From the UHGV virus genome UHGV-0354001: 39,506 nucleotides of DNA. One strand, written 5' to 3'. Below are positions 3,001 through 9,000 of the stretch, one piece after another. The stretch comes from a virus. Numbering within the stretch: the first letter of the stretch is position 1; every line of letters begins with the position of its first letter. A program made the position numbers.

Positions 3001-6000
3001 ATTATCGCGTCCTCAACAATGAATTTTGTGATGCGGTGCCTGGTGCCTCCAGGTGACGTTAACCAGTTAACAATTAACGCCGGATACAGAGAATCCACCC
3101 ATAACACTGTTTTTGGTTTTAACTGTTCCGCGTGCGCTTAGCCGCATTCACTGCATCACAAAATTCACTTTAAAAAGGGTGGCAGAGCAGTCACGGAGTA
3201 GAACTGATGCCACCAAAGACTACACATGGATATTGTGGCGGGGCTGTCACTTAAGCGTATGGTCAGCCTGACAACCCGGTGTCCTCAAGGGGAAGGAATA
3301 ACCCCGCCATACTTACCGCCGCGCCATTTCGCGGATTGCCACAACCGGAAGCGCACGGTCGAATTAAATTTAACGACAAAGTACAGAGAGACGAGCTTCT
3401 CCGTGTGCTTTCGCGTTATGCTCTGACTTTTCAGAGAAATATCCTTTCAGTAAACTGTCAGTGCCGGATGTTCACCCGTGTCCGGCGCACGCACTCCACT
3501 TCACCCGTGGAGAACTCCTTAATTACCAACCTTAGCTTCGTTGGTTAGCTATTAACGCGGGTATGTAATCATTCTGGCAATGCTTAATGCCGCTGCTTTT
3601 TCCAGATTGGTGATATCCTGCTCCAGAGCGGACAGATTTTCAGCCTGCTTAGCCCTGGCTTCATTGGCCCATTTCAGATCCTGCGCTGCATTAATTTTCT
3701 GGCGCATCCACTCATAAAGTTCATCATCGGTATAGTCTGGCGCGATGATGACGGGTTCTCGTTTCTGCATGTCGGCTCCTTGTGGTTAGCGTTGCCTGCT
3801 TTTAACCACGTCAGGCGAGGTGGTATCCTCTGAGGGGTCTGTTACTCGAGAGGAAATTGGTTATGAGTACAATCAAGTTTTCTTGCCCAGAATGTGGTGG
3901 CGAAGTCTTTGACACATCCTTTAAGCCGCAGGGCTCTGACAGTTTCGCGGGAGCCATCTGCAAAAATTGTGGTCACCTTGTAACTGAAGATGAGTCCTCG
4001 CAGTTCGATGACGAAATCGTTGACAATATCTTCGGTGCACTCACCAGAGACTTTCTGAAGTAAAGGCGCATACCGCTTAGTTACCGCTCTGATAATTCTT
4101 ACCTGTCCGGCAATGGCGCTGATGTCAATATAAAGCGCCATTGCTGCTTCTTTGCCGATCCCGGGATGCCTTCCATTCTGATGTTTGACTTCGCCCACTG
4201 AGAAATCCTCTGTTTCCCCTTAACGCCGGGGTAGCGGAACAAAAACCTGCTGCATAGTTATTAAAGTTGAACCCTGCCGTCATGTTCTTACGCCTCGGGC
4301 TGGCTACTTAACCCCTGACCACTGCCTGGTAACTCGAAGTATTGCCCTGCATTCTGTGGGGCGGGGTGGGTGGCAGGTATATAATGTACTTTGCGTTCAT
4401 TGTTGTAAAGTACTTTTAGTACATTTTGTGTGTAAAAAAATGAGATGGGATAAAGTGAAGCACAAACCCGGAGGAAGGCGCTACCGGATTTATGCTGGTT
4501 TAAGAGGCTTTTTGTTTTTTCTTTCGTGCTAACTCTTCGTAAATTGCATTGTACTTCTGTTTTTTCTCTTCAAGAGTTTTTAAAAGTTCATCTGTCTCAC
4601 TGTCAGGGAGCTCGTCCAGAAGGTCAATGATGATTTTTTGTCTTGGATTTAACTCCTGATAGAAACGTACCTGTCCACTTTCTTCTGTATCCTCTCCCAA
4701 AAGATAGGTTGGTGTTGTTCCTATTAGTGTTGCTAATTCCCTTAATTTCTCCCGGCGAGGAATTGTTTCGCCATTAAACCATTTGCTAACCGCTTTTGGT
4801 GTTAATTTCATTCGACGGGCAATTTCTGCCTGCCTTCCATGTTGTTCATAACCAGCGTTTTCACAGGCTAGCGCAAGCCTACTGGCGAACTCTTTACGCG
4901 CTTTATCTTCATGAACCATGAGTTCAATGATATTCGCTCTTGAATGTACTGTCAGTTCTGTTATAGCATGTACTCAAAGTTCACATTGTGAGGGTGATAT
5001 GAACCAGAAAACACTTGAAGATGTAATCAAAACTGTTCGCGTTGCTGTTGTGGCCGACGTTTGTGGTGTCAGCCAAAGAGCAATCTATAAATGGATGGAT
5101 AACGGAAAATTGCCTCGCACAGAATATACCGGCGAAACAAATTACGCTGAAAAAATCGCTCTTGCATCAAACGGATTATTTTCTGCCGATGCAATTTTAA
5201 CTATTGGCAGGAATAAAACTACTACGAAAAAGCTGATGGGAGTTGATTCATGAAAATCAAGCATGAACACATCCGCATGGCGATGAATGCCTGGGCGCAT
5301 CCGGACGGCGAAAAAGTACCGGCTGCGAAAATTACCAAAGCGTATTTCGAACTGGGGATGACGTTCCCGGAACTGTACGACGACAGCCATCCGGAAGCCC
5401 TGGCCCGTAATACCCAGAAAATTTTCCGCTGGGTGGAGAAGGACACCCCTGATGCTGTTGAAAAAATTCAGGCGCTGTTACCGGCGATCGAAAAGGCGAT
5501 GCCGCCTTTGCTGGTGGCCCGTATGCGCAGTCACAGTTCTGAATATTACCGGGAGATCGTCGAACGACGGGATCGGCTGGTGAAAGATGTGGATGATTTT
5601 GTCGCTGTAGCGATCGCCTGGGGCACCCTGACTAACAGTGGTGGTCAGCCTGGTAATGCTGTTGTTGTGCATTGACCAACAATATTTATACCGGATTTCT
5701 TCCGGAAGTTCGTGGGTAAAGTTCGGTATCAGAAGAGGTGAGTATGGCTAATGCCTGGCTCAGATTGTGGCATGACATGCCAAATGACCCCAAGTGGCGA
5801 ACGATTGCCAGGGTATCAGGACAGCCAATCGCAACAGTGATGGCAGTGTATATCCACCTTCTGGTGAGCGCGTCACGAAATGTCACGACATGTCACGGCG
5901 TGTCACTACGTGGTCACATTGATGTCACGACGGAAGATTTAGCAAGTGCGCTTGATGTGACGGAAGACGTAATTGATTCAATTTTGCATGCAATGCAGGG

Positions 6001-9000
6001 GCGGGTTCTGGATGGTGACCTTATTTCCGGATGGGAAAAACGTCAGGTGCTGAAAGAGGACAATGGTAACGTTTCGCAAACGGCAAAATCCCCGGCAGAG
6101 CGCAAGAGAGCGCAGCGGGAGCGCGAAAAGCTGCGGAAATATGATGCTGATTGTCACGATGAGTCACGACGTGTCACGCATCTGTCACGACAAGTCACGA
6201 CAGATAAAGATACAGATACAGAATTAAACCCCACACATAACGCGCGTATGCGCGAGAGTGCTCCAACCGGTGAGTCGCATGGTGCGCCGTTGCAGACAGC
6301 CGAACCTGAATACCTGGACGGCCTGAGCGAACCGATCGGGAAATTTTCGATGACTACTGTCTGGCAGCCGTCGTCGGATTTTCGACAACGGGCAGCAGTG
6401 TGGGGTATGGCTCTGCCTGAGCCGGAATTTACACCTGCAGAGCTTGCCGCATTCCGGGATTACTGGATGGCGGAGGGGAAGGTTTTCACGCAGGTTCAGT
6501 GGGAGCAGAAATTTGCCCGCCACGTGCAGCACGTCAGGGCACAGGTAAAACCAGTCAGCAAGGGGGTAAGCCATGCAGCATCAGGTGGCACGGCATCACG
6601 GGCAGTTCAGGAAATCCGGGCAGCACGCGAACAGTGGGAACGTGACAACGGATTTATCAGCAACGGAAACGGCCTGGAAGCTGTGGGAGCTTATGGGGGA
6701 GGTGTATTCGAACCGCTGGACACAGAAGAACGGGGCCGCACCTTCGAAGCTCTGGATTGCCCAGATTGGCGCGATGACTGAACAGCAAATCCGGCTGGTC
6801 TGCCGTCAGTGCATGGACCGCTGCCGGGCGGGTGAAACGTGGCCCCCGGACCTGGCTGAGTTTGTTGCACTGATTTCGGAGAGTGGGGCAAATCCATTTG
6901 GTCTTACGGTGGATGCAGTGATGGAAGAGTACCGGCGCTGGCGCAATGAATCCTGGCGATACGACGGGAGTGATAAATACCCGTGGCCACAGCCTGTGCT
7001 GTACCACATCTGCCTCGAAATGCGTACCAGAGGGATTGAGCGCCAGATGACGCAGGGTGAGTTAAAACGACTTGCGGAACGGCAACTGACGAAATGGGCA
7101 AAGCATGTTGGTAACGGGATGAGTGTTCCGCCAGTGCGACGACAACTGGAAGGGGCGAAACACCCGCAAGGGCCAACGCCAATTGAACGGCTGAAACAGG
7201 AATACGAACGCCGGAAGGCAGCTGGTTTTATTTGAATCTGAGAAACGATTTTGTCGGAGGAAATTTTAATGGAAACCGTATTTGACGCACTGAAAGCAAT
7301 GGGAAAAGCCACATCGGTAGAACTGGCCGCGCGACTTGATATCAGTCGTGAAGAGGTTCTCAACGAGCTGTGGGAACTCAAAAGAAATGGCGTCGTTGAT
7401 AAAACTGGTCACACCTGGTTTCTGGCTGGCGAAGGTGAATCCCGGGTAACCGAAGAGCGGCCAGTAAAATCTGAAGCACAGGATATGCTGACCGGAGAGG
7501 TCGAACAAAAAGTTACCGCAGACATGATGATTGAGTTTATCGGTCAGGATGGTGCTAAAACGTGTGAGGAACTGGCGGGTAAGTTCGGCGTCAGTACTCG
7601 CAAGGTTGCCTCCACGCTGGCGGTGGTAACCGCAACGGGGCGGCTGGCACGCGTTAATCAGAACGGTAAATTTCGTTACTGCATGCCGGGCGATAATTTA
7701 CCAGCAGAGCCGAAAGCCGCGCTGGTAACGGAAAGTGATGGTAAGGCCTTTCCTCAGCCAGCAGGTGCTGCGTTACCAGTCCGGGAAGCCGCAACACAGG
7801 AAGAAATTAAAACAGAAACTGTGGCGGACATTGTGCAGCCGTTGCCATCGTTTACCGAAACGCAAGCAGATGAGCTGATTTTTCCGTCCCTTCGCAGGGC
7901 AAACCTGGCGCTGCGCAGGGCGAAAAGTGATGTTCAGAAGTGGGAGCGAGTCTGCGCCGCGCTGCGGGAGCTGAACAAGCACCGGGATATTGTTCGACAG
8001 ATTACTGATTCTTCCCGCCGTGTTGTATCGGAAAAGTGATTGCCGGAGGCGCTTATGGCAAAAGTATTTACACCAGAAGAGCGGGAAGAAGTGAAGGCGC
8101 GCATTGTGGAATTCGTGCGCCTGAGCGGACGAGAAACTTTTCGACAACTGGCAGATAAAACGGGTGTCAGTAAGACCGCTATTCGTCGTTTATCTGGTGC
8201 GCTTGCGGCCAGTGGTGATGTCTGGCTCTCTGGTTGCGGGGTATTTCCATCAGAGCAGGCGTATCGCGTATGGCGTAAGACACCGGAGAAGGCTGCTGAC
8301 CCGACACTGATTCGAAAGTTACCAGACGGAGAAATACGCCGCTACGACAGGCGCCTGAATATAATCTGTCGCGAGTGCCGGAAGAGCGAAGCTATGCAGC
8401 GTGTACTGACATTTTATCAAGGAAATGTTAGGTATTTTAGACGTTACTAGATTAAAGAGCATTAGTTCAGATGTGAATTGACATTTTCATGGCGCAGGGT
8501 AGAGCCAGCGTGGTTGTCCGCTTTGCGTCAAAACCAGATATTACCAGATTTAGACATATATTCCCGATAGCCCTGCTCTGATGCTACACTCTGTGCTATT
8601 TTCATGACCCCAATAAAAATATTTATGACTATTGCTGATTTCAAACGGCCTAAATTGGAACTCCCAAACGGGGCAAACAAACTACTACTGCACTCTTGCT
8701 GTGCTCCATGTTCCGGTGAAGTGATGGAGGCGCTTCAGGCCTCGGGAATCGACTACACCATCTTTTTCTACAACCCGAACATTCATCCTCAGAAAGAGTA
8801 TTTAATTCGTAAGGATGAAAATATTCGCTTTGCTGAACAACACGGCGTGCCGTTTATCGATGCTGATTACGACACCGACAACTGGTTTGAACGTGCCAAA
8901 GGAATGGAATGGGAGCCTGAGAGGGGGATCCGTTGTACCATGTGTTTTGACATGCGTTTTGAGCGGACAGCGTTGTACGCTGCTGAAAATGGTTTCAGTG

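What the first reader, a model, noticed from the sequence alone, without database searches (positions are those of the whole stretch)
5872..6200. Two iteron clusters (11 GTCACGA-type repeats) inside the replication initiator gene
There are six repeats at 5872-5930 and five at 6153-6200, each at roughly one helical turn spacing, embedded in the O-like ORF. This is the lambda-style arrangement of an origin inside the initiator gene, but here split into two arrays about 220 bp apart. It probably marks the prophage ori and the initiator binding sites.
Basis: seen in the sequence. Interest (0 to 1): 0.45.

Follow-up and report, generated by a model that had tools for sequence, protein, structure and literature searches.

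The report
Prophage replication origin inside initiator gene
The eleven GTCACG repeats are real and are very probably the binding sites of a prophage replication origin written inside the phage's own initiator gene, which is an ordinary kind of phage origin but an uncharacterised and widespread family of it.

Summary
Eleven same-strand GTCAC(G) cores lie at 5872-5930 (six) and 6153-6200 (five), spaced 10-11 bp. They sit inside the replication initiator gene (5744-6781) of an E. coli lambdoid prophage, upstream of a lambda-P-like helicase loader.

The repeats are under selection as DNA, not as protein. They are read in all three frames. Across 22 species-level homologues (median 64% amino-acid identity), synonymous third positions inside the cores are frozen (major-codon fraction 0.98 against 0.47 elsewhere).

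The two-array layout holds at the same gene offsets from Escherichia to Bordetella, Pseudomonas and Ralstonia phage Firinga. More distant homologues carry different hexamers (GTAACG, CGAACG, GCAACG) at the same two places.

Array 1 encodes a lower-confidence loop of a DnaD/RepA_N-like winged-helix domain. Array 2 encodes a disordered linker.

The only protein shared by all array-bearing loci is the initiator N-domain.

Best reading: an initiator-bound iteron origin of the lambda / SPP1 / pSK41 type. It is a new member of a known kind. Origin function is inferred, not shown.

The parts
5744..6781 (+). Replication initiator gene (345 aa). It has an N-terminal winged-helix 'replisome organizer'-type domain (aa 1-100), a basic helix (aa 117-134), a disordered linker (aa ~137-200) and a DnaT-like ssDNA-binding domain (aa ~200-270).
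5872..5930 (+). Iteron array 1: six direct GTCAC(G) cores at 5872, 5882, 5892, 5902, 5913 and 5924. It encodes aa 43-63, a lower-confidence hairpin or loop between two helices of the N-domain.
   Evidence: for the repeats. pLDDT is about 72 here against 92-98 in the flanks. Core third codon positions are invariant in 22 taxa. Most other taxa have four copies, and the E. coli/E. albertii form has a 21-bp in-frame expansion.
5957..5961 (-). Single inverted copy of the core (GTGAC on the + strand), 33 bp downstream of the last repeat of array 1.
   Evidence: Present at the equivalent gene offset in most GTCAC-type loci. Its Val codon is GTG in 20 of 20. Inverted copies of their own cores also occur in this inter-array region in a GTAAC-type locus (GTTAC, L026, at the same gene offset 214) and in the GCAAC-type Ralstonia phage Firinga (GTTGC). 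It could alternatively be read as a one-mismatch direct copy, GTGACG (D6).
6153..6200 (+). Iteron array 2: five direct GTCACG cores at 6153, 6163, 6173, 6184 and 6194. It encodes aa 137-153 of the disordered interdomain linker.
   Evidence: for the repeats. pLDDT is 47-58. Copy number varies from 4 to 6 among close E. coli relatives and from 3 to 4 in other taxa.
6200..6228 (.). AT-rich, A-skewed (GATAMA)n tract directly after array 2. It is the candidate DNA unwinding element and encodes the D-K-D-T-D-T linker.
   Evidence: GC falls to 0.325 with AT skew +0.56 at 6200-6239. TRF finds ACAGAT x3.8. The tract is present directly after array 2 in 22 of 23 GTCAC-type loci examined, with 62-82% A+T over the first 40 bp, including those from Bordetella and Acidovorax. 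The exception is the list's last row, L126, where a later stray GTCAC core displaced the measurement; Marin's own sequence shows TAGATAAAGATACAGAAGAAGAG directly after its array 2. It is also present after the other iteron types.
6226..6254 (.). Conserved block AAACCCCACACATAA plus the GC palindrome CGCGCGTATGCGCG (6241-6254). It is a possible further origin element, and that role is inferred.
   Evidence: The same block follows the AT tract in Rac-SA53 ydaU (a different N-module with no GTCACG), and in Serratia L010 and Sphingomonas L035, although the flanks differ. The stem was detected. It is a perfect 14-bp palindrome in E. albertii L004.
6774..7235 (+). Lambda-P-family helicase loader gene, overlapping the end of the initiator gene by 8 bp.
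   Evidence: PF06992 at 58 bits. phrog_109 'P-like helicase loader'. PGAP calls it 'replication protein P'.

Best explanation
**What it is.** This is the vegetative replication origin of the prophage, embedded in the gene of its own initiator.

**Proposed mechanism.**
- The initiator's N-terminal winged-helix domain binds the 6-bp GTCACG cores as a head-to-tail array. There is one site per helical turn, so all sites lie on one face of the DNA.
- It binds two arrays, of 6 and 5 sites, that are 229 bp apart, plus one inverted site.
- Oligomerisation of bound initiator bends or loops the DNA and destabilises the adjacent A-rich (GATAMA)n tract at 6200-6228.
- The DnaT-like C-terminal domain together with the P-like protein then brings host DnaB to the opened DNA.

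**How coding and binding coexist.** The iterons are placed in parts of the coding sequence that tolerate any peptide: a surface loop (array 1) and the interdomain linker (array 2).

**Modularity.** N-domain, iterons and AT tract form one exchangeable origin-recognition module. The C-terminal domain and the helicase-delivery genes are swapped independently.

**Shown:** the repeats, their DNA-level conservation, their positions in the predicted protein, and the module boundaries.

**Inferred:** binding by the initiator, unwinding at the AT tract, helicase loading, and origin activity.
For: 1. **Enrichment and phasing.** 11 same-strand cores spaced 10-11 bp; 7 of the window's 10 exact heptamers lie here. 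Over 23 loci the spacing is 10 bp (99 times) or 11 bp (33 times), mean 10.25.
2. **Constraint is on DNA, not protein.** The cores are read in three frames as S-R, V-T and C/G-H. At conserved 4- or 6-fold-degenerate columns the major-codon fraction is 0.98 when the third base lies in a core (n=8) and 0.47 elsewhere (n=33), Mann-Whitney p=3e-5. Val is GTC in 22 of 22 at three columns, Gly is GGT in 22 of 22, Thr is ACG in 22 of 22. Information content is confined to GTCACG and the spacers are free.
3. **Family-wide architecture.** Arrays lie at gene offsets of about 129-160 and 387-418 in 24 of the 38 GTDB species loci that cover the array region (a 39th locus held only the first 29 residues), spanning Gamma- and Betaproteobacteria at 53-89% identity.
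4. **Other specificities at the same two places.** GTAACG, CGAACG(C) and GCAACG occupy the same positions in more distant homologues, down to 38% identity in Ralstonia phage Firinga.
5. **Double-stranded reading.** An inverted copy (GTGAC) is conserved in the GTCAC group, and other groups carry inverted copies of their own cores in the same region. This fits duplex DNA, not mRNA. RNA folding of both arrays is unremarkable, with z-scores of +0.84 and -0.22, and there is no Rfam hit.
6. **AT-rich tract.** An A-skewed, AT-rich tract directly follows array 2 and is conserved across hosts that include Bordetella and Acidovorax.
7. **Gene context.** The order is cI, cro, YdaT/CII-like, initiator, P-like loader.
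8. **Placement in the protein.** Array 1 falls in a low-confidence loop and array 2 plus the AT tract in a disordered linker. The N-domain fold is closest to DnaD-NTD and to the pSK41-type RepA initiator, whose origin also lies in the linker-coding part of its gene (PMC5703833).
9. **Constant partner.** Within 3 kb on each side, the initiator N-domain is the only window protein shared by all array-bearing loci. Homology breakpoints fall at 6202-6222, immediately after array 2.
10. **Precedent.** Iterons inside initiator genes are known for lambda O, P22 gene 18 and phage L gene 18, the last with six 11-bp repeats (10.1101/2020.10.05.325894), and for SPP1 gene 38 (PMC5737612).
Against: - There is no experimental evidence of binding or of autonomous replication for any member of this family. 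Seven literature searches found no description of it.
- No origin feature is annotated in the identical genome or in the related phage records I opened.
- Because the iterons lie inside the N-domain coding sequence, their co-variation with the N-domain is guaranteed by linkage. It does not prove recognition.
- The helix at the usual winged-helix recognition position (aa 74-84) is acidic, and I could not identify specificity residues.
- Some homologues (L030, L032, L038, L040, L041, Microcystis phage L124) show no evident arrays.
- In the otherwise identical genome the prophage integrase is frameshifted, so this copy may never be called on to replicate.
Confidence: 0.8

Rival explanations
1. 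The arrays are initiator-binding sites, or binding sites for another regulator, whose main role is control rather than initiation. They might act as a transcriptional roadblock or autorepressor within the O-P operon, or as handcuffing or titration sites that limit replication. The true start site would then lie elsewhere.
For: Iterons in plasmids serve both initiation and negative control (established knowledge, reviewed in PMC4980987). The sites lie inside the transcribed initiator gene. Up to five copies of this origin type coexist in one E. coli genome, where titration or cross-talk would matter. A second, separate array and an inverted site are not needed for simple initiation.
Against: The arrays are always coupled to an adjacent conserved AT-rich tract, the signature of an unwinding site. 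No other cluster of these cores exists in the 39.5-kb window: the maximum is 2 per 60 bp on the other strand. Control and initiation roles are not mutually exclusive.
Confidence: 0.1
2. The repeats are bound by some other factor, such as a conserved host protein or another phage protein. They would serve packaging, partition, recombination or module exchange rather than replication.
For: Direct binding by the initiator is not shown. The homology breakpoints between modules fall right after array 2, so the region is a recombination junction.
Against: No other phage protein within 3 kb on each side is shared by the array-bearing loci. A single host factor is hard to reconcile with four different cores at the same positions within related hosts, for example GTCACG against GTAACG in Enterobacterales. 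The location next to the helicase-loader gene and the AT tract fits replication.
Confidence: 0.07
3. The repeats are a by-product of coding or of slippage: a repetitive peptide or neutral tandem duplication with no DNA-level function.
For: The peptide SRNVTRGHxDVT is itself conserved. Copy number changes by in-frame 21-bp steps.
Against: A period of 10-11 bp puts the core in all three frames, so no peptide repeat results. Synonymous sites inside the cores are frozen while those at other invariant residues vary freely. The peptide changes wholesale when the core changes. Spacers between cores diverge while the cores do not.
Confidence: 0.03

Closest known systems
Phage lambda ori-lambda inside gene O, with P as helicase loader
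   Same: Initiator-binding repeats lie inside the initiator's own gene, in the part that encodes the junction between the DNA-binding N-domain and the C-domain. An AT-rich, strand-asymmetric tract follows directly, then a palindrome. A P-family loader gene (PF06992) is next downstream, and the whole lies in the early-right operon after cro and cII-like genes. The lambda features are from PMC5509034, PMC6022878 and established knowledge.
   Different: The initiator is not a sequence homologue of O; no Phage_rep_O match was found. Lambda has four iterons of about 19-20 bp in one cluster. Here there are eleven 6-bp direct cores at 10-11 bp spacing in two clusters 229 bp apart, plus one inverted copy. 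The C-domain is DnaT-like rather than the O C-terminus.
Bacillus phage SPP1 oriL inside gene 38 (replisome organizer G38P, AB boxes plus DUE)
   Same: The origin is embedded in the organizer's gene, with repeats bound by the organizer next to an AT-rich unwinding element (PMC5737612). NCBI names close relatives of this protein 'phage replisome organizer'. G38P also binds two separate regions.
   Different: The SPP1 second site (oriR) is far away in the genome, not 229 bp away in the same gene. No significant Pfam or NCBIfam match to the replisome-organizer N-terminal model was obtained here. The host and the helicase system (G39P/G40P) differ.
RepA_N plasmid initiators (pSK41 RepA) and DnaD N-terminal domain
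   Different: There is no sequence membership in PF06970. These are Gram-positive plasmids rather than proteobacterial phages. pSK41 has four boxes in one cluster. The fold similarity is only moderate.
Salmonella phage L gene 18 (six imprecise 11-bp repeats) and P22 gene 18
   Same: Short direct repeats at about one helical turn lie inside the initiator gene of a lambdoid phage and are proposed as its origin on sequence grounds (10.1101/2020.10.05.325894).
   Different: The repeat sequence differs (TGTCCAACGGA), there is a single cluster, and the partner is a DnaB-type helicase (gene 12) rather than a P-type loader.
Rac prophage ydaU-ydaV region (oriJ replicon)
   Same: The C-terminal half of the initiator, the P-like gene, and the AT tract plus AAACCCCACACA plus GC-palindrome block are 82-90% identical to phage Rac-SA53. 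Rac is reported to have an active origin, oriJ (PMC3945230).
   Different: The Rac N-module is unrelated and carries no GTCACG arrays. I could not verify where oriJ maps, so this is a lead only.

Membership tests
Lambda-type origin (ori-lambda / O-P replicon) | Initiator is a homologue of lambda O (Phage_rep_O N-terminal domain) | tested here: not met
   A Pfam scan at E<=0.01 found only PF17948 (DnaT). The N-domain profile found no solved relative by sequence.
Lambda-type origin (ori-lambda / O-P replicon) | Multiple initiator-binding repeats inside the initiator gene, followed by an AT-rich region | tested here: met
   Eleven cores within 5872-6200 inside ORF 5744-6781. GC is 0.325 at 6200-6239.
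Lambda-type origin (ori-lambda / O-P replicon) | Iterons of about 19 bp with internal dyad symmetry, bound by initiator dimers, in one cluster of four | tested here: not met
   The conserved information is confined to 6 bp (GTCACG). The repeats are direct, spaced 10-11 bp, and lie in two clusters.
Lambda-type origin (ori-lambda / O-P replicon) | P-family helicase loader encoded directly downstream | tested here: met
   PF06992 at 58 bits against a cut-off of 26, and phrog_109.
Lambda-type origin (ori-lambda / O-P replicon) | Initiator-dependent, cis-acting replication from the repeat region | not testable with these tools
   This needs a mini-replicon assay or marker-frequency analysis.
Phage replisome organizer (N-terminal organizer domain, SPP1 G38P type) | N-terminal domain matches the curated replisome-organizer N-terminal model | tested here: inconclusive
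   NCBI and nr name cluster relatives 'phage replisome organizer' or 'N-terminal phage replisome organizer family protein'. My Pfam and NCBIfam scans of this protein returned no such model at E<=0.01. phrog_10469 'DnaD-like helicase loader' matched at E 9e-7.
Phage replisome organizer (N-terminal organizer domain, SPP1 G38P type) | Origin repeats plus unwinding element embedded in the organizer's own gene | tested here: met
RepA_N / DnaD-like winged-helix initiators | Winged-helix N-domain with the DnaD-NTD / RepA_N fold | tested here: inconclusive
RepA_N / DnaD-like winged-helix initiators | Sequence membership in PF06970 | tested here: not met
   There was no match in the Pfam scan.
Primosomal protein DnaT | Full-length equivalence to DnaT | tested here: not met
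   NCBIfam NF002770 scored 94.6 bits against a cut-off of 201, covering only aa 194-269. The DnaT ssDNA-binding domain itself is present: PF17948 at 62 bits, and Foldseek matches 4ou6/6aeq with TM 0.85-0.92 normalised to the target.

The most novel reading that the evidence does not exclude
Array 1 is written into the initiator's DNA-binding domain. In my 43-sequence alignment, the peptide it encodes (aa 44-62) looked like the only N-domain segment that changes wholesale when the iteron core changes. The most novel reading not excluded is that this iteron-encoded hairpin is itself part of the reading head that recognises the iterons. Binding site and specificity determinant would then be the same nucleotides, and a change of origin specificity could arise in one step. 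A more modest version is that the family is a pan-proteobacterial, self-contained 'origin plus reader' cassette that plugs into interchangeable unwinding and helicase-delivery modules, including the Rac oriJ type.
Probability: 0.05. Interest if true: 0.8.

Novelty: new member of a known kind. Interest (0 to 1): 0.35.

Why it matters
- **Prevalence.** This origin type is present in 700 of 5426 complete E. coli genomes, with up to five copies per genome, including O157:H7 strains. Relatives occur across Gamma- and Betaproteobacteria and their phages. No origin is annotated in the records I opened, and I found no paper describing it.
- **Practical uses.** Knowing the cis site and its probable reader gives a handle for building mini-replicons. 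It helps predict replication cross-talk or incompatibility between co-resident prophages that share GTCACG specificity. It also allows origins to be annotated in many temperate phages.
- **A clear example of dual coding.** Binding sites are threaded through three reading frames into a loop and a linker. Copy number changes in 21-bp steps, which equal both two helical turns and seven codons.
- **Limit.** It does not change the general picture of how phage origins are built.

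Tried and rejected
- **Literature.** Searches for the motif and for this family found nothing specific: GTCACG with iteron; iterons, DnaT and prophage; replisome organizer; lambdoid, O and DnaT-like; RepA_N; Eru Stx replication regions; oriJ and ydaU. The Stx-phage replication-region paper PMC8044961 mentions no iterons or DnaT. The Pf-5 paper concerned a plasmid-like origin.
- **DnaA boxes.** None lies in or next to the arrays. The nearest one-mismatch match is at 5588.
- **Promoters and terminators.** The scan found nothing above shuffle expectation. The one promoter-like hit at 6177-6150 is made of iteron complements.
- **RNA explanations.** There is no Rfam family in the region and no unusual RNA folding.
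- **Protein-repeat explanation.** Rejected by the frame and codon analysis.
- **Specificity residues.** I compared N-domains across the four iteron types. The sample was too small and confounded by phylogeny, so no call was made.
- **Gilvimarinus loci.** I checked whether these were the domesticated dopC/dopE genes reported to lack iterons (PMC5509034). L015 has an ordinary prophage context, so there is no conflict.

Full report

Yes. The sequence shows GTCAC cores on the + strand at 5872, 5882, 5892, 5902, 5913 and 5924, and at 6153, 6163, 6173, 6184 and 6194. Spacings are 10, 10, 10, 11, 11 and 10, 10, 11, 10 bp. Nine cores are GTCACG and seven are the exact heptamer GTCACGA.

The window holds ten GTCACGA in all. 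The three outside the region are on the other strand. Nine of the thirteen + strand GTCACG lie in these 329 bp.

Six same-strand GTCAC in 60 bp was never reached in 1000 first-order Markov shuffles, where the usual maximum was 2 and the highest was 5, once. Tandem Repeats Finder reports both arrays.

A looser search, TGTCACG with one mismatch, is not enriched window-wide. The signal is the clustering of the exact core, not the general frequency of similar words.

**2. Where is it?**

The window is an E. coli lambdoid prophage next to mtfA and tRNA-Ser. It is 100% identical to NZ_CP069893 over the 1.1-kb segment searched.

The repeats lie in gene 5744-6781, which PGAP calls 'DnaT-like ssDNA-binding domain-containing protein'. 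This gene matches PHROG replication-initiation families and carries a C-terminal DnaT domain. Its close relatives are named 'phage replisome organizer'.

Upstream are a cI-like repressor, a cro-like gene and a YdaT/CII-like gene. Downstream, overlapping by 8 bp, is a lambda-P-family helicase loader at 6774-7235. No origin is annotated in any of the records I opened.

**3. Is the constraint on DNA or on protein?**

It is on DNA. A period of 10-11 bp puts the core into all three reading frames, read as TCA-CGn (S-R), GTC-ACG (V-T) and nGT-CAC (C/G-H).

I aligned 22 homologues from different species with pairwise amino-acid identity of 56-97% (median 64%). I then compared synonymous codon use at conserved 4- or 6-fold-degenerate residues:
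- Where the third base lies inside a core, the major codon accounts for 0.98 of sequences (n=8 columns).
- Elsewhere it accounts for 0.47 (n=33 columns). Mann-Whitney p=3e-5.
- The two 'outside' columns with a value of 1.0 are the Thr ACG codons that supply the sixth base of GTCACG.

Over 178 sites from 23 loci, information content is confined to G-T-C-A-C-G (G at the sixth position in 88%). The spacers are essentially free.

In phage Tritos, at 84% DNA identity, the cores are kept while the spacers differ, and array 1 is shorter by exactly 21 bp.

**4. How conserved is the layout?**

A scan of one genome per GTDB species returned 39 loci, 38 of which cover the array region (the 39th, L042, held only the first 29 residues at a contig end). 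In 24 of the 38 (53-89% identity), GTCAC arrays sit at the same gene offsets, about 129-160 and 387-418 nt. These include Escherichia, Shigella, Rahnella, Serratia, Pseudomonas, Entomomonas, Gilvimarinus, Aquitalea, Chromobacterium, Bordetella, Acidovorax, Castellaniella and Pseudothauera. Most also carry a single inverted copy (GTGAC) at offset 193, equivalent to window 5957.

More distant homologues carry a different core at the same two places:

| Core | Loci |
|---|---|
| GTAACG | Pantoea, Enterobacter, Sphingomonas, Marinobacter |
| CGAACG(C) | Janthinobacterium, several MAGs, an environmental podovirus |
| GCAACG | Ralstonia phage Firinga (38% identity) |

Inverted copies of the local core also occur in this inter-array region: GTTAC in L026, at the same gene offset 214 as the window's copy, and GTTGC in Firinga. 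That fits recognition of duplex DNA.

A few homologues show no obvious arrays: L030, L032, L038, L040, L041 and a Microcystis phage.

**5. What lies next to the arrays?**

Directly after array 2 comes an A-rich, AT-rich tract at 6200-6228. GC is 0.325 and AT skew is +0.56. It is made of GATAAA and GATACA units.

This tract directly follows array 2 in 22 of the 23 GTCAC-type loci examined, with 62-82% A+T over its first 40 bp, and those loci include Bordetella and Acidovorax. The exception is the list's last row, P. aeruginosa phage Marin (L126), where a later stray GTCAC core displaced the measurement; Marin's own sequence shows TAGATAAAGATACAGAAGAAGAG directly after its array 2. The tract is also present after the other iteron types.

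In this window it is followed by AAACCCCACACATAA and the palindrome CGCGCGTATGCGCG (6241-6254). The same tract and block occur in three other contexts although their flanks differ:
- phage Rac-SA53 ydaU, whose N-module is unrelated and has no GTCACG repeats;
- a Serratia locus (L010);
- a Sphingomonas locus (L035).

**6. How does this map onto the protein?**

AlphaFold models built from a 68-sequence alignment give a confident N-domain (aa 1-100, pLDDT above 90), with one dip to about 72 at aa 41-60. Array 1 encodes aa 43-63. Array 2 (aa 137-153) and the AT tract (aa 153-162) fall in a linker with pLDDT of 44-58.

The C-terminal domain superposes on the DnaT ssDNA-binding domain (4ou6, 6aeq) at 57-58% identity.

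The binding sites therefore sit in coding segments that tolerate arbitrary peptides. Consistent with that, the encoded peptide changes completely when the core changes.

**7. Who binds the repeats?**

This is not shown. Because the iterons lie inside the N-domain coding sequence, their co-variation with that domain is automatic and proves nothing. Two results bear on the question:
- Among all array-bearing loci, the N-domain is the only window protein with a homologue within 3 kb on each side. cI, cro, YdaT, the C-domain, P and the downstream genes are not shared.
- Megablast homology to other phages breaks at window 6202-6222, immediately after array 2. The N-half matches Tritos, Evi and others. 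The C-half matches Rac-SA53.

The downstream partners also differ between phages: a P-like loader here, DnaB in Firinga, and a primase-helicase in Pseudomonas phage Marin.

The N-domain, the iterons and the AT tract thus behave as one module. Binding by the N-domain is the most economical inference.

**8. Mechanism proposed (inferred)**

- Initiator N-domains occupy one GTCACG per helical turn on one face of the DNA in both arrays.
- Oligomerisation, which is known for DnaD-NTD and RepA_N tetramers (PMC5703833), bends or loops the 229-bp interval.
- This strains the adjacent A-rich tract open.
- The DnaT-like domain and the P-like protein deliver host DnaB.

Transcription through the region from the early-right promoter may assist, as it does in lambda. 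That last point rests on established knowledge and was not tested here.

**9. Comparison with known systems**

The kind is well known. Precedents are:
- lambda ori inside O;
- P22 gene 18, and phage L gene 18 with six 11-bp repeats (10.1101/2020.10.05.325894);
- SPP1 oriL inside gene 38, with AB boxes and an unwinding element (PMC5737612);
- pSK41 RepA, with Rep boxes in the linker-coding centre of its gene (PMC5703833).

It works like these. By sequence it is not a member of the lambda O or RepA_N families. Its membership of the curated replisome-organizer N-terminal family is inconclusive.

The differences are a 6-bp direct core at 10-11 bp spacing, two arrays split by the sequence that encodes the second half of the DNA-binding domain, one inverted copy, and a DnaT-like C-domain.

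**10. Novelty and verdict**

I found no paper or annotation describing this origin family. Only 24 phage records in the collection encode the N-domain, and none is a classical model phage.

Even so, the origin region is in 700 of 5426 complete E. coli genomes, with up to five copies per genome.

I rate it a new member of a known kind. Interest is moderate: it is useful and tidy, but it would not surprise a specialist.

Noticed in passing
window 6200-6254; L002 about 2500-2560; L010 about 3420-3480; L035 about 1950-2020: An AT-rich (GATAMA)n tract, then AAACCCCACACA(T)AA, then a CGCGC-n-GCGCG palindrome, is conserved at the DNA level. It occurs between initiators whose N-modules (Rac ydaU type) or C-modules (Serratia, Sphingomonas) differ. 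This suggests a shared unwinding or loading element that can be exchanged independently of the iterons.
   Followed up: partly
L009, L013, L014, L017, L026, L126 (directly after the AT tract that follows array 2): Homologues with other C-terminal modules carry CCCCCC-n3-4-CCCCCC, or CCCCCC-TGA-GGGGGG palindromes, after the AT tract. These partly encode a P-P-L-x-P-P motif. Whether this is a DNA element or a protein motif is unresolved.
   Followed up: no
window 5872-5930 and 6153-6200; L001 2677-2714; L043-L122: Iteron copy number changes in in-frame steps of 21 bp, which is two repeats, seven codons and two helical turns. Array 1 has six copies in E. coli and E. albertii and four in most other taxa. 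Array 2 has 4-6 copies among close E. coli relatives.
   Followed up: yes
E. coli genomes (for example NC_011353 O157:H7 EC4115, three places): The same origin region (window 5860-6240) is present in 700 of 5426 complete E. coli genomes, with up to five copies per genome. Several co-resident prophages may therefore share one initiator-iteron specificity, which raises the possibility of cross-activation or titration.
   Followed up: partly
L002 2430-2480 (Rac-SA53 ydaU): The unrelated Rac-type N-module has its own inverted repeat, GTGTTCAAACA...TGTTTGAACA(T), just upstream of the shared AT tract. It may be that initiator's binding site.
   Followed up: no
window 3177-3228 (-), 9358-9538 (+), 14254-14500 (+), 14579-14787 (+), 14791-14843 (-): Rfam gathering-score hits elsewhere in the prophage: DicF sRNA, a sok antitoxin RNA, three tRNAs, STnc100 sRNA and AsxR (anti-stx2 sRNA).
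   Followed up: no
window about 8625-9290, 9475-10593, 10607-11485: By identity to the annotated genome NZ_CP069893, the prophage cargo downstream of the replication genes includes an epoxyqueuosine reductase QueH, a DNA cytosine methyltransferase and an NgoMIV-family restriction endonuclease. The integrase in that genome, just outside this window, is frameshifted.
   Followed up: no
plasmid records CP124671 and CP137943 (P. aeruginosa, about 50.9 kb): Two 'plasmid' records of phage-genome size carry a 69%-identical copy of the origin region. They are probably episomal or replicative phage genomes of the phi1/Marin type rather than true plasmids.
   Followed up: no
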